The notes beneath the pieces were generated by a model that worked only from the letters and a program-made list of their open reading frames with translations, had not been told where the DNA came from and did no database searches. A stretch of DNA of 8,257 nucleotides from a virus. Position numbers and translations under genes: made by a program. Of the stretch, positions 1,103 to 6,649 are shown piece by piece. Where the stretch lies: UHGV virus genome UHGV-0211679, one strand, 5' to 3'. Each line of letters begins with the position of its first letter. Within the stretch, counting starts at the first letter, position 1.

Positions 1103-2368
1103 ATGCGCTCTGTTATTGTTGCTTTTTTATTTGCCTGTTCATTCTGCGTTTCTGCTGAAACTGTTAATTTAAACAATTCATCTGTTCGCTCATTTGTTCA
1201 GTGGTATTCTTCAAAAACTGGCAAGCCTGTTATTGTTAATCCTGATATTAAAGGAAACGTAACCGTATTTAATGCTGATGTTAATCCAACAAATATTGAT
1301 GATTTCTTTAAGTCTGTTCTGAATGCTAACGGTTTTGTCATGCTTTCTGGCAATCCTGCGGTAGTCTCTTTGCCGTCTAAATTACCTTCACAGATGGTTT
1401 CGGATTCCGATGATTCTGATAACCAGTCTTATGATACTTTTCCTTCTGAGCCATCTTACCAGCCAGTACCTGTGGCGCTTACGGTCAGAAATTTTAAGCT
1501 GACAAAAGTTAGATCGTCCGATGTTCAGCAACTGATTAAAATTTATCTTGATTCTAATGGTGGTGGTAATGTCGTGGATTATCCAGGCAATAACTCGCTG
1601 ATTGTTTCTGCGCCTGACGAGCTGCTGCCGGTTCTGTCCGATTTTATCAATTCTGTGGATGTTGCCCGCGATCAGGTTCTCATTCAGTCGCTGATGTTTG
1701 AAACCAGCTTGTCTGATGGCGTTGATTTATCGTTTGCGGCAGGTTCTGCATCCGGTCATAAGGTTGCGGGGGGCTTTAATACTTCTGCACTGGGTAGCGC
1801 TCTTTCTACGGCGGGCGGTTCTTTTGGTATTTTTGATGGTAACGTGTTGGCGCTGTCTCTGCGTGCTGTCCAGAGTAATTCACGCTCTAAGGTGATTTCA
1901 ACGCCGCGTATTCTTACTCAGTCTGGTCAGACTGGTTACATTTCCGTAGGTAAGAATGTGCCGTTTATCACCGGAAAGGTAACGGGCGAATCTGCCGGGG
2001 TAAATAATCCGTTTCAGACTATCGAGCGTCATGATGTTGGCGTTTCTCTCAAGGTAACGCCTGTTGTCATGGGTAACGGGCAACTAGTTCTGACTATCGA
2101 CACTCGCGCTGATTCAATCAGCAATGATGATCAGGCATCCGATATTATTACTAATCAGCGCCAGATTCAGACGACAGTCCAGATTAAGGATGGTCAGACG
2201 TTGTTATTGGGGGGGCTTATCGATTCATCGTTTAGCAATGCTGAGCGTTCAGTTCCAGTTATAAGTAAAATTCCTCTTATAGGCTGGATTTTCAGTAGCA
2301 AGGCAGACAGCAATGAACAGCGTATTATGTATATTTTGCTTACAGCACATATCATTCGTCCACTTTGA
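1103..2368 (+). CDS. IV: Filamentous-phage secretin pIV (gene IV)
   Basis: ATG 1103 preceded by AGGAG (1088-1092); stop TGA 2366-2368. Signal-peptide-like N-terminus MRSVIVAFLFACSFCVSA. Secretin blocks GGSFGIF, VPFITGKVTGES, NPFQTIER, GQTLLLGGL and IPLIG match recalled Ff pIV. The track ORF extension back to 1010 overlaps gene I and is not used. Confidence 0.93.
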   Translation: MRSVIVAFLFACSFCVSAETVNLNNSSVRSFVQWYSSKTGKPVIVNPDIKGNVTVFNADVNPTNIDDFFKSVLNANGFVMLSGNPAVVSLPSKLPSQMVSDSDDSDNQSYDTFPSEPSYQPVPVALTVRNFKLTKVRSSDVQQLIKIYLDSNGGGNVVDYPGNNSLIVSAPDELLPVLSDFINSVDVARDQVLIQSLMFETSLSDGVDLSFAAGSASGHKVAGGFNTSALGSALSTAGGSFGIFDGNVLALSLRAVQSNSRSKVISTPRILTQSGQTGYISVGKNVPFITGKVTGESAGVNNPFQTIERHDVGVSLKVTPVVMGNGQLVLTIDTRADSISNDDQASDIITNQRQIQTTVQIKDGQTLLLGGLIDSSFSNAERSVPVISKIPLIGWIFSSKADSNEQRIMYILLTAHIIRPL

Positions 2369-2412
2369 TGGATAGCGGGTAGGTGCGTGAGCCCTGCTCG
2401 CTATCCATCAAA
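2364..2412 (+). other. Long DNA hairpin directly after gene IV (candidate packaging-signal or intergenic origin hairpin)
   Basis: Inverted repeat TTTGATGGATAGCG (2364-2377) / CGCTATCCATCAAA (2399-2412): 14 perfect bp, extendable by about 6 more with G-T wobbles. Overlaps the gene IV stop. In Ff phages the packaging-signal hairpin lies immediately after gene IV. The structure is seen; the role is inferred. Confidence 0.5.
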
Positions 2413-2437
2413 TGGACATTATTGATTGGGGTAACTA

Positions 2438-2746
2438 ATGGATTCTTATGGGATTTTATCTGCTCTGGCAGAACGAACGATTACAGCGGAAGAAGCAAAA
2501 ACAATGACACTTGCAGCCAGAAGTTCTTCGGCTCAGGTAAATGAAGCATCACTTGCTCTGTTACTGATTGATAATACTCTGGATGCGATCAAAGCAGCTG
2601 CCAGTGAAGGGAAAGGATACACTTTACTTCCTTCTTATGAGATTTCTTTAAAAGCCATTGATTTAGCAGAAGAATTTTTAAGGAAACAATGCGGCTATGT
2701 TATTGATAACCAGAATGGCGTAAGGACGGTCTATTGGTTTATATGA
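2438..2746 (+). CDS. Hypothetical protein, 102 aa, no recognisable family
   Basis: ORF ATG 2438 to TGA 2744-2746; weak SD-like GGGG 7 nt upstream. Mildly acidic, predicted mostly helical, no TM segment. Flanked by two long hairpins, so it could alternatively be non-coding intergenic sequence. Confidence 0.4.
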   Translation: MDSYGILSALAERTITAEEAKTMTLAARSSSAQVNEASLALLLIDNTLDAIKAAASEGKGYTLLPSYEISLKAIDLAEEFLRKQCGYVIDNQNGVRTVYWFI

Positions 2747-2747
2747 T

Positions 2748-2792
2748 AACCCCGGACAGTGACAAAACTTGCTTTTGTTAGTGTCCGGGGTT
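2748..2792 (+). other. Long near-perfect DNA hairpin (candidate origin or structured intergenic element)
   Basis: AACCCCGGACAGTGACAAAA (2748-2767) pairs with TTTTGTTAGTGTCCGGGGTT (2773-2792): about 19 bp stem with one mismatch and one G-T pair, 5-nt loop. A T7 run sits about 20 nt downstream (2813-2819), too far for a canonical intrinsic terminator. Confidence 0.5.
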
Positions 2793-2863
2793 GGCCAAGC
2801 CGAACAATTCTGTTTTTTTAGCGTTATTGCTGATTCGGCGCGGCAGCATTACGAGGAGATAAA

Positions 2864-3097
2864 ATGCAATTTTTCACATCCAGCGATACTGTAATGTTAT
2901 GTGCGAAGACCTGCGATCGCTGTGGTCGCCATGCGAAGACGGTGGTAGATGACATTGAGTTCAATGAGTTTCTGTCTGTTAATCACTTAGCTGGATACGG
3001 TTCAATTTTTGGTGACAGTAATCGCTTAAAACTGGATTTATGCCAACATTGCCTGAAAGACGTCCTGGGCCAGTGGATTACGGTCTGTGACCAATGA
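2864..3097 (+). CDS. Small zinc-ribbon-like protein, 77 aa (CxxC...CxxC)
   Basis: ATG 2864 preceded by a strong SD GAGGAG (2853-2858) with 5-nt spacer; stop TGA 3095-3097. Two CxxC pairs (CDRC and CQHC) about 43 residues apart suggest a Zn-binding ribbon. No family assignment possible by eye. Confidence 0.6.
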   Translation: MQFFTSSDTVMLCAKTCDRCGRHAKTVVDDIEFNEFLSVNHLAGYGSIFGDSNRLKLDLCQHCLKDVLGQWITVCDQ

Positions 3098-3135
3098 CGG
3101 CACCGGTAACGCCAGTTCCCACCATCCTTACCATT

Positions 3136-3168
3136 GGTGCGCATAATGTACGACTCGTTATGTTGAAA
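3136..3168 (+). other. dif-like XerC/XerD recombination site (candidate attP of an Xer-exploiting integrative phage)
   Basis: GGTGCGCATAA (3136-3146) is an 11/11 match to the XerC arm of E. coli dif (GGTGCGCATAA-TGTATA-TTATGTTAAAT, recalled). Then TGTACGACTCG (11-nt central region beginning TGTA), then TTATGTTGAAA (3158-3168), 9/11 to the XerD arm. Central region is longer than the canonical 6 bp. Confidence 0.6.
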
Positions 3169-3202
3169 AGGCCGCTGCGAAAATAGAATCCCGCAGCGGC
3201 CT
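3169..3202. terminator. Hairpin between convergent genes, putative bidirectional intrinsic terminator
   Basis: AGGCCGCTGCG (3169-3179) / CGCAGCGGCCT (3192-3202): 11-bp GC-rich stem, 12-nt loop. Followed by CTTTA on + and TTTCAA on the minus strand, so the U-tracts are short. Lies between the end of the 2864-3097 ORF and the end of the minus-strand operon. Confidence 0.5.
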
Positions 3203-3232
3203 CTTTAGCATAACGTCATTGTGCGAACCAAT

Positions 3233-3937
3233 TCATAATGCTGCGGGAGCCACGTAATAGACAATCACAAATACAGCTAATGCTCCACCTGCTCTTACCC
3301 AGTTTGATATTTTGACTTCTATAAACCCGGGTATAAATGAGACTACCCCAGCAACTGCTGCTGAAAGAATTATTCGAAAGAAAGTGTATTGAAAGTTCGT
3401 TGGATTAGGTATAAATATTGCGATTATTATAAAAAGAATAACAAGTAAAATGCCAAAGCTAAATGCCGCTATTCTCTCGTGTGCTTTTGTCAATTTTTCT
3501 TTTCCTTTATTGTCAAATCCATATACTGGCATATCTTCATTAACGAAAAGATTCCTTATTTCTTTTGCAGAACGTTTGTCATGGGCTTTTACTATCCTTT
3601 GCATTGAAGCAAAAGCAGTGGAGCTTGGTTTAATACTATTATCATTCATTACCTCTCTATATTTTTTGTAATGAGCTAAGATAAGGTGAAGAACATCAAT
3701 GCATGTTTCTGCAAGCCATTGATTCCATTGAGTATTATTTAATTCATCTACTGTTCTGTTATGTGCAGCGCAGTGTTCTAAATAGCCGAAAAAACTGTCT
3801 CCACATGAATTCACGGTATCAAAATCACATTTACCAGATAGGTAACACTCTAATGACTCAGTATATTTTTCATATAAACGCTCAATTTCTTTTTTTTGAT
3901 TATCAATGATACCGTGAACATCCATATCTGATTTCAC
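3233..3937 (-). CDS. Membrane protein, about 230 aa: Cys-rich soluble N-domain plus C-terminal transmembrane helices; function unknown
   Basis: Minus-strand ORF, stop TGA (rc of 3233-3235). First codon is GTG at 3937-3935, overlapping the upstream TAG (TAGTG); the first ATG is at 3925-3923. N-terminal about 155 aa hydrophilic with C-x5-C-x7-C-x10-C (LECYLSGKCDFDTVNSCGDSFFGYLEHC). C-terminus has hydrophobic stretches FSFGILLVILFIIIAIFIP, FFRIILSAAVAGVVSFIPGFI and GGALAVFVIVYYVAPAAL. Visibly AT-rich compared with the phage core. Confidence 0.6.
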   Translation of the reverse strand: MKSDMDVHGIIDNQKKEIERLYEKYTESLECYLSGKCDFDTVNSCGDSFFGYLEHCAAHNRTVDELNNTQWNQWLAETCIDVLHLILAHYKKYREVMNDNSIKPSSTAFASMQRIVKAHDKRSAKEIRNLFVNEDMPVYGFDNKGKEKLTKAHERIAAFSFGILLVILFIIIAIFIPNPTNFQYTFFRIILSAAVAGVVSFIPGFIEVKISNWVRAGGALAVFVIVYYVAPAAL

Positions 3938-4212
3938 TATCTTTTTTGTTGAGTGTTATTTGACTGGGATTGAATTTTTGCCAATAGCGAACTTGCTTTC
4001 GATGTATTCAATCCATTACAAATCATTCTTGTAATCGGTTTTTTGTAAATTCGATGAACGATATTTTCAACTTCAGTGATGCTTTCATTGCCACTGAGTT
4101 TTTTTATCTCATTGAACATCTCCTCCAATTGTTCATTTGTTGGATGCCATTTGATTATATCTAATTCTTCCTCTAATGCTTTTTTAAAAAGGAAAACCTG
4201 AAAAGATAACAT
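3937..4212 (-). CDS. Hypothetical small protein, 91 aa, with C-terminal tail paralogous to the upstream ORF
   Basis: ATG at 4212-4210 preceded by AAGGAAAG with 4-nt spacer; stop TAG (rc of 3937-3939). C-terminal 26 aa NGLNTSKASSLLAKIQSQSNNTQQKR parallels the tail of ORF 4214-4510. Confidence 0.55.
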   Translation of the reverse strand: MLSFQVFLFKKALEEELDIIKWHPTNEQLEEMFNEIKKLSGNESITEVENIVHRIYKKPITRMICNGLNTSKASSLLAKIQSQSNNTQQKR

Positions 4213-4213
4213 A

Positions 4214-4510
4214 TTACTTTCCTTGTGTTGGTTTAGTAGTGGATTGTTGAGCTTTTTCTAAAAGCCTTTTTGCTTTAGATGTGTCCAAACCATCTTGGGC
4301 AAAGCCTTGTTGCTTATCATTCTGTTTTTGTTCACTTTTTTTTGGCGTATTCATCAGTATATACTTTGACTCGTTTTGTTTATCTCGATGACTTACTTTT
4401 TGTTTAAGTTTTGCACAAACTAGAACGTGCAGTGTTGGTAATACTGCACGTTTGTACCATTCGTGGTACTTAATCCTTTTGTTTGGCAGACATGAGATCT
4501 TCTGCTGCAT
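4214..4510 (-). CDS. Hypothetical small K/Q-rich protein (start uncertain), tail paralogous to ORF 3937-4212
   Basis: Stop TAA (rc of 4214-4216), 1 nt before the ATG of the next gene. The track start at 4528 is a TTG; the first ATG is at 4510-4508, and a later ATG at 4354-4352 would give a 46-aa product. None has a clear SD. C-terminal 26 aa DGLDTSKAKRLLEKAQQSTTKPTQGK. Overlaps the end of the RHH gene if started at 4510. Confidence 0.3.
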   Translation of the reverse strand: MQQKISCLPNKRIKYHEWYKRAVLPTLHVLVCAKLKQKVSHRDKQNESKYILMNTPKKSEQKQNDKQQGFAQDGLDTSKAKRLLEKAQQSTTKPTQGK

Positions 4511-4652
4511 CTTTAGAGTAGTTATCAATCAGATAACCTAAAATCTCTGTCCATGTAATTGTTTTTCCTAGTTTTACACTGGCATTTATAGCCAGTCGTT
4601 CTAGTTTCATTTTTCTTTCTTCCGTCACGTTATAAGTCGTGCGCTTTGCCAT
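4470..4652 (-). CDS. Ribbon-helix-helix-like small DNA-binding protein, 60 aa (candidate phage repressor or antitoxin-type regulator)
   Basis: ATG at 4652-4650, stop TAA (rc of 4470-4472). MAKRTTYNVTEERKMKLERLAINASVKLGKTITWTEILGYLIDNYSKD fits an RHH pattern: short N-terminal beta-strand (TYNVT), helix, turn, helix. Divergent from gene II across a repeat-containing region. Confidence 0.55.
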   Translation of the reverse strand: MAKRTTYNVTEERKMKLERLAINASVKLGKTITWTEILGYLIDNYSKDAAEDLMSAKQKD

Positions 4653-4699
4653 TTTTTACGCTCGTTCAATGCAATATTTGAAGTGAGTATACATGCTCA

Positions 4700-4779
4700 T
4701 GAACTCATATCATCCAAGCCTCTTGAACTCACTAGCTCACTGATGTAATGTTAAAACACTAATGAACTACTGAACTCAT
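4700..4779. promoter_or_regulatory. Four direct TGAACT(C/A) repeats in the divergent control region (candidate operator or iteron array)
   Basis: TGAACTCAT at 4700-4708, TGAACTCAC at 4724-4732, TGAACTAC at 4763-4770, TGAACTCAT at 4771-4779. Located between the RHH gene start (4652, minus) and the gene II start (4822, plus). Confidence 0.45.
4723..4751 (+). promoter_or_regulatory. Candidate sigma70 promoter for gene II
   Basis: TTGAAC (4723-4728), 17-nt spacer, TAATGT (4746-4751). The -35 overlaps one TGAACT repeat. Pattern match by eye only. Confidence 0.3.
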
Positions 4780-4821
4780 GTGTTAGTAAGTCGTCATTTT
4801 TGCAATTTTGAGGATTTATTC

Positions 4822-5874
4822 GTGATCGATTGGCTTACCGGGATTTTCCCTTGCACACACAAACCGCTTCCGGCGGGGAGTGTTGTCAGCGTTGATGCTG
4901 ACGGTGCAATTGAGTGGGAAACCGTTAAGCGACTGACTGTTCGCGGCTCGCATGAAGCAACGATGAAAGTACGATCGATAGGATCTAATGGCGAAGGTAA
5001 AGCGACACATTTGTACATTGATGGTAATCCGTCCAAGTTTTTGCAGGGGCATTCTGTTGTTGGGTCGGATGATATACAAGGGCTCATGTTGACGGTCTAT
5101 GCCAGGATTTTATCCTTATTGAATATTCCTCATGATTTAGCGTCTTATAAAGCTGTTATAGCAGGTCAGTATAAAATTTCACGTGTTGACATTAATTACA
5201 TGTATTCATTATCTACGCTAGAAAATGTCAGATCATGGCTTTATGCCGCCGAATTTAAAGCTAAAACACGCCATGGTCGCGCATGTGGGAAAGGCGGTAC
5301 AGTTTATTTAGGTAAAAACTCCCGTCGATGGAGTCTGAAATTTTATTCAAAATATGATGAACACGTTTCGGGTAAAAAAGGGCACCAGATAGCCGAAGAT
5401 TTTGTACGAGCCGGGTTACTGGACTGGACGAAAGATAAATTACGTATTGAATTAACATTAAGAACAACTGAGCTTATTGATTTAAATTTAACGCTTGGCG
5501 CTAACTGGAATATGAAAACACCACGTCAATTATTCTCTGAATATGTAGGGAGAATAGAAATGAATCAGAATGCTATTTTAAGTGATGAAAAAATAACGAA
5601 ACTGCCAAGAAAAATACAGTCAACTTATTTACTTTGGAAACAAGGGGCTAACATGAAAGAAATGTTACCTCATAACACTTTTTATCGCCATAGAAGAGAA
5701 TTGCTTTCGTTCGGTATCGATATTAATTTCTATTGTGATTCACCAGACTCTAATAACGTTGTTCCGCTAATAAGAACGCTGGAAGCCAAGCCAGTGGAAA
5801 TCCCCTTATGGATTTATGAGAAAGGTTTTATTTTCGATTACAACCGTATTTCGCACGCCAGTAGCTGGCATTAA
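4822..5874 (+). CDS. II: Replication initiation protein pII (gene II, rolling-circle nickase)
   Basis: GTG start at 4822 preceded by GAGGA (4810-4814) with 7-nt spacer; product begins (M)IDWL..., compare M13 pII MIDML.... Blocks NPSKFLQGHSVVGSDD and NNVVPLIR match recalled M13 pII (SPAKVLQGHNVFGTTD, NNVVPLVR). Stop TAA 5872-5874. An upstream in-frame GTG at 4780 lacks an SD. Confidence 0.85.
   Translation: MIDWLTGIFPCTHKPLPAGSVVSVDADGAIEWETVKRLTVRGSHEATMKVRSIGSNGEGKATHLYIDGNPSKFLQGHSVVGSDDIQGLMLTVYARILSLLNIPHDLASYKAVIAGQYKISRVDINYMYSLSTLENVRSWLYAAEFKAKTRHGRACGKGGTVYLGKNSRRWSLKFYSKYDEHVSGKKGHQIAEDFVRAGLLDWTKDKLRIELTLRTTELIDLNLTLGANWNMKTPRQLFSEYVGRIEMNQNAILSDEKITKLPRKIQSTYLLWKQGANMKEMLPHNTFYRHRRELLSFGIDINFYCDSPDSNNVVPLIRTLEAKPVEIPLWIYEKGFIFDYNRISHASSWH
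5560..5874 (+). CDS. X: pX (gene X), in-frame internal start within gene II
   Basis: ATG at 5560 in the gene II frame with SD GGGAG (5548-5552); product MNQNAILSDEK..., 104 aa, equal to the C-terminal part of pII, as in Ff phages (M13 pX starts MNIYDDSAVL). Confidence 0.6.
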   Translation: MNQNAILSDEKITKLPRKIQSTYLLWKQGANMKEMLPHNTFYRHRRELLSFGIDINFYCDSPDSNNVVPLIRTLEAKPVEIPLWIYEKGFIFDYNRISHASSWH

Positions 5875-5885
5875 AGGAAAGTAAT

Positions 5886-6203
5886 ATGTCTAATTATGGT
5901 CTTTTCGTTAAGGGTAAAATGTTGGGAGCCCGCCAACGTAATAAAGTTAATGGTCAGGGCTATTATAATGAAATTGGTATTGGCCTTGAAATACCTGATG
6001 GTTTTGGTGGTACAAAGCAGGATCAAATTATTATTCGAGTTTCTCAGACTCTCGTTAACGCAGGTCTAATGAACCAGGCGAATGCTTTCATTGGGAAATT
6101 AGTTCAAATTCCTGTCTATGTCCGTGCGTGGTCAATGGAGGGTAGGGAAGGTGTAACTTATAATGTTTCTTCCGATGGTGGCATCGCAGAGATCAAAGGT
6201 TAA
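5886..6203 (+). CDS. Gene-V-position protein, 105 aa (putative ssDNA-binding protein by synteny; not recognisably Ff gVp-like)
   Basis: ATG 5886 preceded by AAGGAAAG; stop TAA 6201-6203. Sits between gene II/X and gene VII, where Ff phages encode gVp. The sequence (MSNYGLFVKGKMLGARQRN...) does not resemble M13 or IKe gVp as I recall them. Confidence 0.55.
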   Translation: MSNYGLFVKGKMLGARQRNKVNGQGYYNEIGIGLEIPDGFGGTKQDQIIIRVSQTLVNAGLMNQANAFIGKLVQIPVYVRAWSMEGREGVTYNVSSDGGIAEIKG

Positions 6204-6292: not shown

Positions 6293-6387
6293 TGTATATC
6301 GTTTATTTCTTCGGGGCTTATACCTTTGGTTTTGCCCTTTTCTATGCGGTCGGTTCATTTAAATCATTTTCTGACCGATTAATGTAA
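6292..6387 (+). CDS. IX: Minor coat protein pIX (gene IX), 31 aa
   Basis: ATG 6292 in the TAATG overlap; product MYIVYFFGAYTFGFALFYAVGSFKSFSDRLM is a hydrophobic peptide resembling M13 pIX (MSVLVYSFASFVLGW...). Stop TAA 6385-6387. The longer track ORF from 6163 is an N-terminal over-extension. Confidence 0.65.
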   Translation: MYIVYFFGAYTFGFALFYAVGSFKSFSDRLM

Positions 6388-6406
6388 CCTTAATGGAGTT
6401 ATTCCT

Positions 6407-6649
6407 ATGAAAATTCTGTCTACTGTTAAATATAAAGTTGCTCTGGCTTCAACTGCGCTTTTTGTTTCTGCAAGTTCTTTTGCGGCTGAAGGCGCTACAG
6501 GTGGTACTGATTATGCAGGTCAGGCAATGGATGCTTTGTTGACTCAGGCAAATGATCTCATTGGTAAAGTATGGCCTGTTGTTGTGGCTGTGGTTGGCGC
6601 TGGGCTTGCCATTCGTATTTTCAAAAAATTCTCTTCAAAAGCGGTTTGA
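6407..6649 (+). CDS. VIII: Major coat protein pVIII precursor (gene VIII)
   Basis: ATG 6407 with GGAG 8 nt upstream; 80 aa. Signal peptide ending SSFA, then mature AEGATGG...[25 protein letters not shown]. The C-terminal [11 protein letters not shown] and WPVV match my recollection of IKe pVIII more closely than M13 (FKKFTSKAS). Stop TGA 6647-6649. Confidence 0.93.

What the first reader, a model, noticed from the sequence alone, without database searches (positions are those of the whole stretch)
2364..2792. Two long near-perfect hairpins bracket the first cargo ORF; candidates for packaging signal and replication origin
Hairpins at 2364-2412 (about 20 bp stem) and 2748-2792 (about 19 bp stem) are far more stable than random sequence and lie where Ff phages keep the packaging signal and origin hairpins. 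I could not find the Ff plus-origin nick consensus, so the origin of this phage is unassigned. The 2438-2746 ORF between them may instead be structured non-coding DNA.
Basis: partly seen in the sequence, partly recalled or inferred. Interest (0 to 1): 0.5.

Follow-up and report, generated by a model that had tools for sequence, protein, structure and literature searches.

The report
Phage packaging hairpin plus unknown hairpins
Both hairpins are real: the first matches the known packaging signal of the related phages IKe and I2-2, the second belongs to a conserved two-hairpin element of unproven function (best guess: start site for copying the second DNA strand), and the gene between them is a real gene.

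Summary
The window is a complete 8257-nt UPphi901-type filamentous phage of E. coli that integrates at dif.

- **Hairpins.** Both exist as described. ssDNA folding energies are -21.4 and -18.7 kcal/mol (z about -8). They rank 1st and 3rd among all 60-nt windows of the genome.
- **Hairpin 1 (2364-2412).** It is the homologue of the "morphogenetic signal" annotated in IKe and I2-2. It overlaps the gIV stop codon in the same way and has an invariant apex GGTAGGTGCGNNAGCCCTGC. Ten of 20 stem pairs covary. It is inherited together with IKe-like pVII/pIX.
- **Hairpin 2 (2748-2792).** It is the first half of a conserved block I call E1 (2745-2850), together with a second hairpin at 2794-2844. E1 is shared at about 88% identity with YpfPhi-type phages whose structural genes are unrelated. 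It covaries and folds better on the + strand. It is absent exactly where an IKe-type minus-strand origin is present. It is not a terminator, promoter or plus origin. My best guess is a complementary-strand (minus) origin, at about 0.4; this is unproven.
- **Plus origin.** It is conserved in the I2-2 intergenic region.
- **ORF 2438-2746.** This is gene h1. It is protein-coding (dN/dS 0.13-0.24), not structured non-coding DNA.

The parts
2364..2412 (+). Hairpin 1: homologue of the IKe/I2-2 morphogenetic (packaging) signal. Its 5' arm overlaps the gIV stop codon (2366-2368). The invariant apex is at 2378-2397.
   Evidence: structure, z -8.2. (annotated signals in I2-2 at 2260-2330 and IKe at 6141-6196). 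(BLAST match of the apex). (12 distinct sequences, 10 of 20 pairs compensatory, 93% of cells paired against 30-45% in slid controls). (+ strand more stable in 12 of 12).
2438..2746 (+). Gene h1 (102 aa, function unknown), a core gene of UPphi phages. It is a real coding sequence.
   Evidence: homologues down to 60% identity. (dN/dS 0.13-0.24; differences by codon position 28/18/51). (phrog_4115). (fold z -1.35). PMC7307601.
2748..2792 (+). Hairpin 2 (hp2): 20-bp stem with an invariant G.T wobble and a CTYG-type loop. It is the first half of the conserved element E1.
   Evidence: (15 distinct sequences; compensatory changes at 4 stem pairs). (a further C-G to T-A change in a Klebsiella copy). 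(+ strand more stable in 14 of 15).
2794..2844 (+). Hairpin 2b (hp2b): 9-11-bp stem closing a T-rich loop of about 30 nt, one base after hp2. It is the second half of E1. The conserved block as a whole is 2745-2850.
   Evidence: fold of 2744-2850: -26.7 kcal/mol, z -5.7. (pairs 52-104 and 60-96 change G-C to A-U; the two mismatched pairs become paired in the L008 type). (a third stem sequence, ACCTGGCCG/CGGCCAGGT).
2864..3097 (+). Gene h2 (77 aa, CxxC...CxxC motifs, function unknown). Its ribosome-binding site follows E1 directly.
   Evidence: phrog_5435. PMC7307601.
3133..3232 (+). attP: a dif-like site (3136-3163) plus an inverted second Xer-like site. On the + strand they fold into a forked hairpin of about 100 nt. 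This is context, not part of the flagged hairpins.
   Evidence: -31.2 kcal/mol, z -8.05. (exact dif at the prophage right junction). (left junction). (the YpfPhi model).
4424..4469 (+). Probable plus-strand (viral-strand) origin, E3. The nick hairpin is 4424-4452, with TAATACTGCACGTTTGT at 4439-4455. The predicted nick is between T4439 and A4440. A second hairpin lies at 4454-4469.
   Evidence: match to I2-2 intergenic region 2666-2699. (invariant core in 10 sequences; covariation in the second hairpin). (alignment with the annotated IKe viral-strand origin). (one match; 0.01 expected by chance). (fold). (M13 nick site).

Best explanation
The window is a UPphi901-type inovirus whose Ff-style intergenic region has been split up by inserted genes. 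Its cis-acting DNA signals are therefore scattered rather than clustered.

1. Hairpin 1 (2364-2412) is the packaging (morphogenetic) signal. On the single-stranded + strand it forms the hairpin that the phage's IKe-like pVII/pIX/pI assembly proteins recognise to start extrusion. I rate this at about 0.85.

2. Hairpin 2 is not a stand-alone feature. With the adjacent hairpin 2794-2844 it forms a conserved, strand-specific element of about 100 nt (E1). Its most likely role is the complementary-strand (minus) origin: a folded structure on the incoming + strand that stays free of SSB and is recognised by a host priming enzyme (RNA polymerase or primase) to start conversion of ssDNA to the replicative form. 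I rate this at about 0.4. It is inferred, not shown.

3. The plus-strand origin nicked by pII is elsewhere, at 4424-4469 (about 0.8).

4. The ORF between the hairpins is the real gene h1 (about 0.95).
For: Identity of the window.
- It is 99.9% identical to tandem prophages at E. coli dif.
- The UPphi901 primer IntCheck_RV matches 2464-2483.

Hairpin 1.
- It sits in the same place relative to the gIV stop as the annotated signals of I2-2 and IKe.
- The apex is invariant in 12 distinct phages. Ten of 20 pairs show double changes, against 0-5 in slid controls.
- It is present only in genomes with IKe-like pVII/pIX (70% and 53-57% identity) and absent from YpfPhi-type phages, which lack them.

E1.
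- It is 87.7% identical between this phage and YpfPhi-type phages, while the shared gII/gV are 80% identical and the structural genes are unalignable.
- Six pairs carry double changes, against a shuffle mean of 2.4 (1 of 500 shuffles reaches it). 88.8% of cells are paired, against 32-52% in slid controls.
- A G.T wobble is invariant, and the + strand is more stable in 14 of 15 sequences, by a mean of 3.5 kcal/mol. This points to a single-strand function.
- E1 always has the same orientation and the same order: packaging signal, then E1, then attP, then E3.
- E1 and the IKe-type minus origin exclude each other. I2-2, IKe, PEar1, L063 and L067 have the IKe type and no E1. Every E1 genome lacks the IKe type. 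The window has no IKe-type minus origin.
- The order packaging signal, two hairpins, plus origin matches the annotated IKe layout.
- No intrinsic terminator or sigma-70 promoter is found there, and there is no Rfam family.

Plus origin.

h1.
Against: - No experiment exists for any of these signals in UPphi or YpfPhi.
- E1 has no sequence similarity to the IKe, I2-2 or Ff minus origins. No -35/-10-like hexamers were found.
- YpfPhi-type phages have no hairpin-1 homologue and no other long hairpin apart from attP, hp2 and E3. In them hp2 could be the packaging signal.
- E1 always lies between two small ORFs, with the next ribosome-binding site right after it. That also fits an mRNA-level role.
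- A further strong + strand hairpin at 4851-4910, inside gII, is an alternative minus-origin candidate.
- The relatives are close (82% mean column identity), so the covariation statistics for E1 are modest.
- One decayed remnant (L108) keeps hp2 without a recognisable hp2b.
Confidence: 0.5

Rival explanations
1. Hairpin 2/E1 is a packaging signal. It would be the packaging signal of YpfPhi-type phages, carried into UPphi with the attP module, where it would be redundant with hairpin 1 or act as a second assembly signal.
For: YpfPhi-type genomes lack hairpin 1. Their only long + strand hairpins are attP, hp2 and E3. hp2 is strand-biased in the same way as hairpin 1. The deletion derivative L011 keeps hp2 but lost hairpin 1.
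Against: Packaging signals co-evolve with pVII/pIX/pI. Here the same E1 (88% identical) serves two phage groups whose assembly proteins are not detectably related. UPphi already has a conserved IKe-type signal. Nothing shows that L011 is ever packaged.
Confidence: 0.15
2. The hairpins act on mRNA rather than on phage ssDNA. They would be intercistronic stem-loops that stop 3' exonucleases, act as processing or termination sites, and set the relative expression of gIV, h1 and h2.
For: Both hairpins sit directly after stop codons (2368 and 2746). E1 is always followed within about 20 nt by a ribosome-binding site and a start codon. G.U pairs are equally valid in + sense RNA. IKe's own annotation calls its hairpin a potential transcription terminator as well as a morphogenetic signal.
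Against: No T-run follows either stem, so they are not classical intrinsic terminators. E1 is conserved as a unit next to unrelated upstream and downstream ORFs. The apex of hairpin 1 is invariant in sequence across phages with 50-70% protein identity, which suggests protein recognition and not only stability. The two roles are not mutually exclusive.
Confidence: 0.2
3. E1 is an accessory element of XerCD integration. For example, it could bind a factor or shape the ssDNA so that the attP hairpin 290 nt downstream forms or persists.
For: All complete E1-bearing phages also carry the attP block. Non-integrating I2-2 and IKe have neither. The spacing from E1 to attP stays within about 270-400 nt.
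Against: L068 and L069 carry attP and a hairpin-1-type packaging signal but no E1. No such accessory element is known for CTXphi-type integration (my own knowledge). The co-occurrence is equally explained by common descent of a gIV-to-attP segment.
Confidence: 0.07
4. Hairpin 2 is the plus-strand (pII) origin.
For: It lies in the region that corresponds to the Ff intergenic region.
Against: It has no nick motif. I2-2, which has the same type of pII, lacks E1 but has the 4424-4452 hairpin. The motif TAATASTGSACNNTTGT occurs once in the window, at 4439-4455.
Confidence: 0.03

Closest known systems
Morphogenetic (packaging) signal hairpin of the Lineavirus phages IKe and I2-2, equivalent to hairpin [A] of Ff
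   Same: Hairpin 1 starts inside the last codons of gIV (CTTTGA) and lies on the + strand. It is an imperfect stem of about 20 bp with the identical apex GGTAGGTGCGNNAGCCCTGC. It travels with homologous pVII, pIX, pI and pIV.
   Different: The lower stem sequence is different and compensated, and it is more perfect than in IKe (-20 against -11 kcal/mol). It is followed by a gene (h1) rather than by the minus origin. Function is untested in this phage.
Minus-strand origin of Ff/IKe: hairpins [B] and [C], primed by host RNA polymerase
   Same: E1 is two adjacent + strand hairpins covering about 100 nt. It lies 3' of the packaging signal and 5' of the plus origin. It is conserved independently of the phage's own proteins. 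It is present exactly in those genomes that lack the IKe-type element.
   Different: There is no sequence similarity and no promoter-like hexamers were detected. E1 is separated from both the packaging signal and the plus origin by genes. The priming enzyme is unknown and the function is unproven.
Viral-strand (plus) origin of Ff/IKe and the I2-2 intergenic region
   Same: For 4424-4469, not for the flagged hairpins. A nick hairpin is followed directly by a second small hairpin. The shared motif is T-AATA-TG-AC--TTGT--CA, and the pII belongs to the same Pfam families.
   Different: It lies 1.6 kb from hairpin 2, between two minus-strand genes. It is only about 60% identical to the IKe core, and the nick is not mapped.
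CTXphi-type single-stranded attP (forked hairpin of two inverted dif-like sites), as proposed for YpfPhi
   Same: For 3133-3232: the same architecture, integration at dif with dif regenerated at the right end, and tandem prophages.
   Different: It is not part of the flagged hairpins. It shows only that the strongest structures of this genome are all cis-acting ssDNA signals.
Single-strand initiation signals and ssDNA promoters of plasmids (G4-type ssi, F plasmid Frpo)
   Same: These share the general idea of a folded structure on SSB-coated ssDNA that recruits a host priming enzyme. This comparison rests on my own knowledge and was not tested here.
   Different: E1 matches in the plasmid collection were few (9 records). 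The two I inspected in full are a decayed phage remnant and a matching copy, not plasmid ssi regions.

Membership tests
IKe/I2-2-type morphogenetic (packaging) signal | Hairpin on the + strand that begins at the end of gene IV | tested here: met
   The gIV stop at 2366-2368 lies in the 5' arm. The arrangement is the same in I2-2 (signal 2260-2330, gIV ends 2273) and IKe (6141-6196, gIV ends 6151).
IKe/I2-2-type morphogenetic (packaging) signal | Sequence homology to the annotated signals | tested here: met
   BLAST match of 2377-2397 to I2-2 (95%) and IKe (91%). The apex is invariant in 12 distinct sequences.
IKe/I2-2-type morphogenetic (packaging) signal | Stem maintained by compensatory change | tested here: met
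   Ten of 20 pairs have changes on both sides, and 93.3% of cells are paired. Slid controls give 30-45% paired and 0-5 such pairs. No shuffle of 500 reaches the observed values.
IKe/I2-2-type morphogenetic (packaging) signal | Co-inheritance with the proteins that read it (pVII, pIX, pI) | tested here: met
   pVII is 70% and pIX 53-57% identical to I2-2/IKe. The hairpin and these proteins are both absent from YpfPhi-type phages.
IKe/I2-2-type morphogenetic (packaging) signal | Orientation-dependent ability to direct packaging of ssDNA | not testable with these tools
   This needs a transduction assay with a helper phage.
Ff/IKe minus-strand origin (for hairpin 2/E1) | Sequence homology to hairpins [B]/[C] of IKe, I2-2 or Ff | tested here: not met
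   No match of the IKe 6325-6445 or I2-2 2385-2520 regions anywhere in the window.
Ff/IKe minus-strand origin (for hairpin 2/E1) | Two adjacent + strand hairpins between the packaging signal and the plus origin | tested here: met
   hp2 at 2748-2792 and hp2b at 2794-2844. The order packaging signal, E1, E3 holds in all complete genomes.
Ff/IKe minus-strand origin (for hairpin 2/E1) | Promoter-like -35/-10 elements presented by the folded DNA | tested here: inconclusive
   The linear scan found no sigma-70-like site on either strand at 2745-2850. I inspected the stacked stems by eye and saw only a GTGACA hexamer. No tool here models promoters in folded ssDNA.
Ff/IKe minus-strand origin (for hairpin 2/E1) | Primer synthesis on SSB-coated + strand DNA; loss of function lowers RF formation | not testable with these tools
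   This needs in vitro priming or complementation of a minus-origin-deleted M13.
Ff/IKe plus-strand origin (for hairpin 2) | pII nick motif in a hairpin followed by a pII-binding inverted repeat | tested here: not met
   The motif occurs only at 4439-4455. hp2 has no similarity to the IKe origin.
Intrinsic (rho-independent) terminator | GC-rich stem followed directly by a T-run | tested here: not met
   The scan lists no terminator at either hairpin. The bases after the stems are ATGGACAT and GGCCAAGC.
Any curated RNA family (Rfam 15) | Covariance-model match | tested here: not met
   The only hit in the window is a chance-level one at 3168-3219 (E = 0.31).

The most novel reading that the evidence does not exclude
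E1 is a previously undescribed class of complementary-strand origin, used by dif-integrating enterobacterial inoviruses including the Yersinia pestis phage YpfPhi. It sits just 5' of attP on the + strand. Because minus-strand synthesis runs away from attP, the single-stranded attP hairpin would be the last part of the genome to become duplex. That would give XerCD the longest possible time to integrate the phage, coupling replication start to lysogeny.
Probability: 0.12. Interest if true: 0.65.

Novelty: new variant of a known kind. Interest (0 to 1): 0.4.

Why it matters
UPphi and YpfPhi/CUS-1 phages are common in uropathogenic E. coli, Salmonella, Klebsiella and pandemic Y. pestis. The papers I could read describe only their genes and dif integration (PMC7307601, PMC4266046). 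They do not map packaging or replication signals.

This analysis gives testable coordinates for four signals:
- the packaging signal (2364-2412);
- the plus origin (4424-4469);
- the single-stranded attP (3133-3232);
- a conserved element that may be a new type of minus origin (2745-2850).

These coordinates are what one needs to build phagemids or helper systems for these phages. They would also help explain how the phages are produced from tandem prophages and how modules are exchanged between phage lineages.

Hairpin 1 itself is ordinary: it is the expected homologue of a known signal.

Tried and rejected
- **Annotated phage collection.** The whole window matches only a piece of gIV of IKe and PEar. 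E1 has no match even at E = 1.
- **Rfam.** Nothing.
- **Promoter and terminator scan of 2200-4900.** Nothing at either hairpin.
- **IKe/I2-2 minus origin in the window.** No homologue.
- **E1 covariance model.** It found no E1 in I2-2, IKe, L063, L066-L069 or the Rheinheimera loci with 42-44% pII identity.
- **Integron attC-like or cassette boundary reading of the two hairpins.** Rejected by eye. The hairpins are unrelated to each other, and the R'/R'' boxes fit poorly.
- **Plasmid copies of E1 and of the 72-nt attP core as independent evidence.** Rejected. The Klebsiella copy is a decayed prophage with a secretin fragment and an h2-like gene.
- **Metagenome scan with the hp2 core pattern.** Most of the 120 hits were chance matches. 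Only two new variants were useful, L108 and L164.
- **My first identification of the window as CUS-1.** This was wrong. It is UPphi901-type, and CUS-1/YpfPhi is the related L003/L016 type.
- **Gonzalez et al. 2002 (CUS-1).** The paper is not held.
- **Hairpin at 4851-4910 inside gII.** It is kept in close relatives but absent in I2-2. It lies in coding sequence, so its conservation cannot be interpreted.
Full report
**What the window is.**
The 8257 bases are one complete circular filamentous-phage genome, written from the start of gene I. All morphogenesis and replication genes lie on the + strand:
- gI 1-1095 (Zot family);
- gIV 1103-2368 (secretin);
- gII about 4822-5874 (Phage_CRI + G2P_X_C);
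- gV 5886-6203;
- gVII, gIX, gVIII, gIII and gVI up to 8257.

The window is 99.9% identical to prophages found in 47 complete E. coli genomes, usually as tandem copies next to dif. The right prophage junction carries the exact dif sequence GGTGCGCATAATGTATATTATGTTAAAT. The left junction joins the host XerC arm to phage sequence.

The published primer IntCheck_RV for phage UPphi901 matches 2464-2483. The description of UPphi901 also fits: a relative of IKe and I2-2, a dif site, two unknown genes h1 and h2 in what is intergenic DNA in IKe/I2-2/M13, and reverse-oriented ORFs after dif (PMC7307601). That paper does not mention hairpins (0 occurrences) and mentions packaging once.

I first took the phage for CUS-1/YpfPhi. 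That was wrong. CUS-1/YpfPhi is the related but distinct type represented here by L003, L004 and L016.

The two inverted repeats are at the stated coordinates. As ssDNA they fold at -21.4 and -18.7 kcal/mol, with z -8.2 and -7.9, and none of 200 shuffles does as well.

In a scan of all 60-nt windows of the + strand, only five places stand out:
- hairpin 1 (-21.6);
- the attP core (-20.6);
- hairpin 2 (-20.3);
- a hairpin inside gII at 4851-4910 (-17.7);
- 4411-4470 (-16.3).

Everything else is -10.6 or weaker. Both flagged hairpins are 2.7-3.4 kcal/mol more stable on the + strand than on the - strand, because they contain G.T pairs.

**Hairpin 1 is the Lineavirus packaging signal.**
The GenBank records of I2-2 and IKe annotate a "morphogenetic signal" at 2260-2330 and 6141-6196. 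Each starts just before the gIV stop codon. The sequences line up with the window as follows:
- window: CTTTGATGGATAGCGGGTAGGTGCGTGAGCCCTGCTCGCTATCCATCAAA
- I2-2: CTTTGAGGGTGCGGGGTAGGTGCGTTAGCCCTGCCCCGTATCCTCA
- IKe: CTTTGAGGCTGCCGGGTAGGTGCGCTAGCCCTGCCCGTAGACTC

BLAST of the I2-2 and IKe intergenic regions against the window finds this apex.

A pattern scan of viral contigs, plus PEar1, gave 12 distinct homologues. On their alignment RNAalifold predicts 20 pairs. Ten of these have changes on both sides, and 93% of cells are paired, against 30-45% when the partner is slid. No shuffle of 500 reaches the observed covariation. The + strand is more stable in 12 of 12.

The hairpin occurs only in genomes whose pVII, pIX, pI and pIV are IKe-like. 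The window's pVII is 70% and its pIX 53-57% identical to I2-2/IKe. The hairpin is missing from YpfPhi-type phages, where these proteins have no detectable counterpart.

In Ff the packaging signal is read by pVII/pIX at the start of assembly (bioRxiv 10.1101/2023.12.30.573655). This co-inheritance is therefore what a packaging signal should show. Function in this phage is inferred, not tested.

**Hairpin 2 is half of a larger conserved element.**
The only DNA shared between the window and a 9.5-kb YpfPhi-type phage (L003) is:

| Window segment | Identity |
|---|---|
| 2745-2850 | 87.7% |
| 3110-3239 | 91.5% |
| 4400-4480 | 83% |
| gII + gV | 80% |

In complete E. coli genomes, 118 further records carry 2745-2850 at 80-90% identity without the rest of the region.

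The block consists of hairpin 2 and, one base later, a second hairpin at 2794-2844. This second hairpin has a 9-11-bp stem and a T-rich loop of about 30 nt. Together they fold at -26.7 kcal/mol, z -5.7.

Fifteen distinct copies were collected from genomes, viral contigs and prophages of Salmonella, Yersinia pestis, Klebsiella, Brenneria and Phytobacter.
- Six pairs change on both sides, against a shuffle mean of 2.4 (1 of 500 reaches it) and 0-2 in slid controls.
- 88.8% of cells pair, against 32-52% in slid controls.
- Examples are G-C to T-A in L014, with the one-sided intermediate G.A in L002; G-C to A-T in L019; A-T to G-C in L008; and both end pairs of the second stem changing G-C to A-T in L008/L012.
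- A Klebsiella copy adds C-G to T-A in the otherwise invariant upper stem, and a third version of the second stem.
- One G.T pair is invariant (15 of 15), and the + strand is more stable in 14 of 15, by a mean of 3.5 kcal/mol.

E1 is always on the gene strand, and always in the order packaging signal (if present), E1, attP, E3, gII. It is not a terminator or a sigma-70 promoter by consensus scan. It matches no Rfam family and no deposited phage.

**What E1 probably does.**
Three observations point to a host-dependent, single-strand function.
- E1 is better conserved than the phage's own replication genes.
- It serves two phage groups with unrelated assembly proteins.
- It is strand-specific.

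A filamentous phage needs a complementary-strand origin, and the window has no homologue of the IKe/I2-2 one. Across all loci the two elements exclude each other. I2-2, IKe, PEar1, L063 and L067 have the IKe type and no E1. All E1 genomes lack the IKe type. I2-2 is the telling case: it shares the pII type (56% identity) and the plus-origin hairpin with the window, yet it has the IKe minus origin where the window has E1.

The annotated IKe layout is packaging signal, two minus-origin hairpins, two plus-origin hairpins. The window has the same order with genes inserted between. I therefore rank "complementary-strand origin" first, at about 0.4.

The weak points are as follows.
- There is no sequence similarity to known minus origins.
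- No promoter-like hexamers were found.
- YpfPhi-type phages have no other obvious packaging hairpin, so hp2 could be theirs.
- E1 always lies between two small ORFs with a ribosome-binding site right after it, so an mRNA role is possible.
- The hairpin inside gII (4851-4910) is another candidate.
- L068 and L069 have attP and a hairpin-1-type signal but a third, different structured block in E1's place. This argues against a strict link between E1 and integration.

**The plus origin is elsewhere.**
BLAST of the I2-2 intergenic region against the window gives a second hit: 4423-4448 matches I2-2 2666-2691 at 92%. In ten sequences the core CGTGCAGTGTWKGTAATACTGCACGTTTGT is invariant. It is followed by a small hairpin that covaries (GTACCA/TGGTAC against GTCTCA/TGAGAC).

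Aligned with the viral-strand origin annotated in IKe (6554-6599), it shares T-AATA-TG-AC--TTGT--CA and the two-hairpin layout. The pattern TAATASTGSACNNTTGT occurs once in the window, with 0.01 expected by chance. The region folds as two hairpins at 4424-4452 and 4454-4469.

M13 pII nicks between the T and the A of this motif (PMC11765958). By analogy, the nick here would be between T4439 and A4440. This element follows the I2-2-type pII in every genome, including non-integrating I2-2.

**The ORF between the hairpins is a gene.**
Homologues exist at 60-77% identity, with the reading frame and length kept. The pairwise measures are:

| Measure | Window vs L008 | Window vs L012 |
|---|---|---|
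| dN/dS | 0.13 | 0.24 |
| Differences at codon positions 1 / 2 / 3 | 28 / 18 / 51 | 28 / 20 / 47 |

The ORF belongs to phrog_4115. Its DNA folds no better than shuffles (z -1.35), like control gene segments. It is the h1 gene of the UPphi paper, where it is used as a core gene.

**Verdict.**
Hairpin 1 is a new member of a known family of packaging signals. Hairpin 2 belongs to a conserved element that is not homologous to any described signal. It is most likely, though not provably here, a minus-strand origin of a new sequence type. The plus origin and attP lie outside the flagged interval.

Interest is moderate. Nothing here overturns how filamentous phages work, but it supplies the first cis-element map for a widespread group of prophages that includes YpfPhi.

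Noticed in passing
window 3133-3232: The + strand folds into a forked hairpin of about 100 nt (-31.2 kcal/mol, z -8). It is built from a dif-like site (GGTGCGCATAATGTACGACTCGTTATGT, 3136-3163) and an inverted second Xer-like site at about 3205-3232. Prophage junctions show exchange after GGTGCGCATAATGTA, and dif is regenerated at the right end. This is a CTXphi-style single-stranded attP, as proposed for YpfPhi.
   Followed up: partly
window 3159-3230; L005 5001-5071; L006 4001-4074: The inner 72 nt of attP is a GC-rich hairpin with T-runs on both sides, so it looks like a two-way terminator. It occurs at about 92% identity on more than 400 enterobacterial plasmids, mostly conjugative. In the copies I inspected it lies directly 3' of unrelated minus-strand genes (STM4504 family, hypothetical proteins); other listed matches overlap a Shedu nuclease gene. 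At least one copy is a decayed filamentous prophage. Whether all are is unknown.
   Followed up: partly
window 4851-4910: This is the fourth-strongest + strand hairpin of the genome (-17.7 kcal/mol; 86-nt fold z -3.6). It lies inside the first 30 codons of gII. It is kept in UPphi and YpfPhi relatives, partly through C-to-T changes that keep G.T pairs, but is absent in I2-2. It could be a regulatory or priming site, or a by-product of the coding sequence.
   Followed up: partly
L011 2807-3142 (Citrobacter youngae contig): A deletion derivative in which the first codons (about 44) of gII are fused in frame to the 3' half of h1. All morphogenesis genes and hairpin 1 are lost. The 4424-4469 origin hairpins, the small repressor-like gene, E1, h2 and part of attP are kept. 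It may be a defective satellite or simply a decayed prophage.
   Followed up: no
window 4696-4778: Three to four direct repeats of CTCWTGAACTCA lie between the small minus-strand ORF (4470-4652, 60 aa, phrog_2503, in the position of a repressor) and gII. They are candidate operator sites. This intergenic region is not shared with YpfPhi-type phages, which carry a different HTH regulator.
   Followed up: no
L068 700-800 (- strand); L069 7300-7390: Two viral contigs have a hairpin-1-type packaging signal and the attP block, but neither E1 nor an IKe-type minus origin. A third conserved structured block (GGCTGCGG..TTATGCCCAnCAGGGCATGG.AGGCGG...CCGCC) follows their packaging signal.
   Followed up: no
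L007 (I2-2) 2548-2585: The I2-2 intergenic region still contains ACTCTTGTTGCAAAATCGCAACG, which resembles the second hairpin of the IKe plus origin (GGACTCTTGTTGCATTTTGCAACG). It lies upstream of the origin hairpin that I2-2 shares with the window. It looks like a relic of an IKe-type origin left after exchange of the replication module.
   Followed up: no
window 3233-4354 (- strand): The three reverse-oriented ORFs after attP (234, 91 and 46 aa; phrogs 5814, 6502, 6875) are the variable cargo. A 98.7%-identical Salmonella circular copy (L002) carries a Doc-family toxin gene there instead.
   Followed up: no
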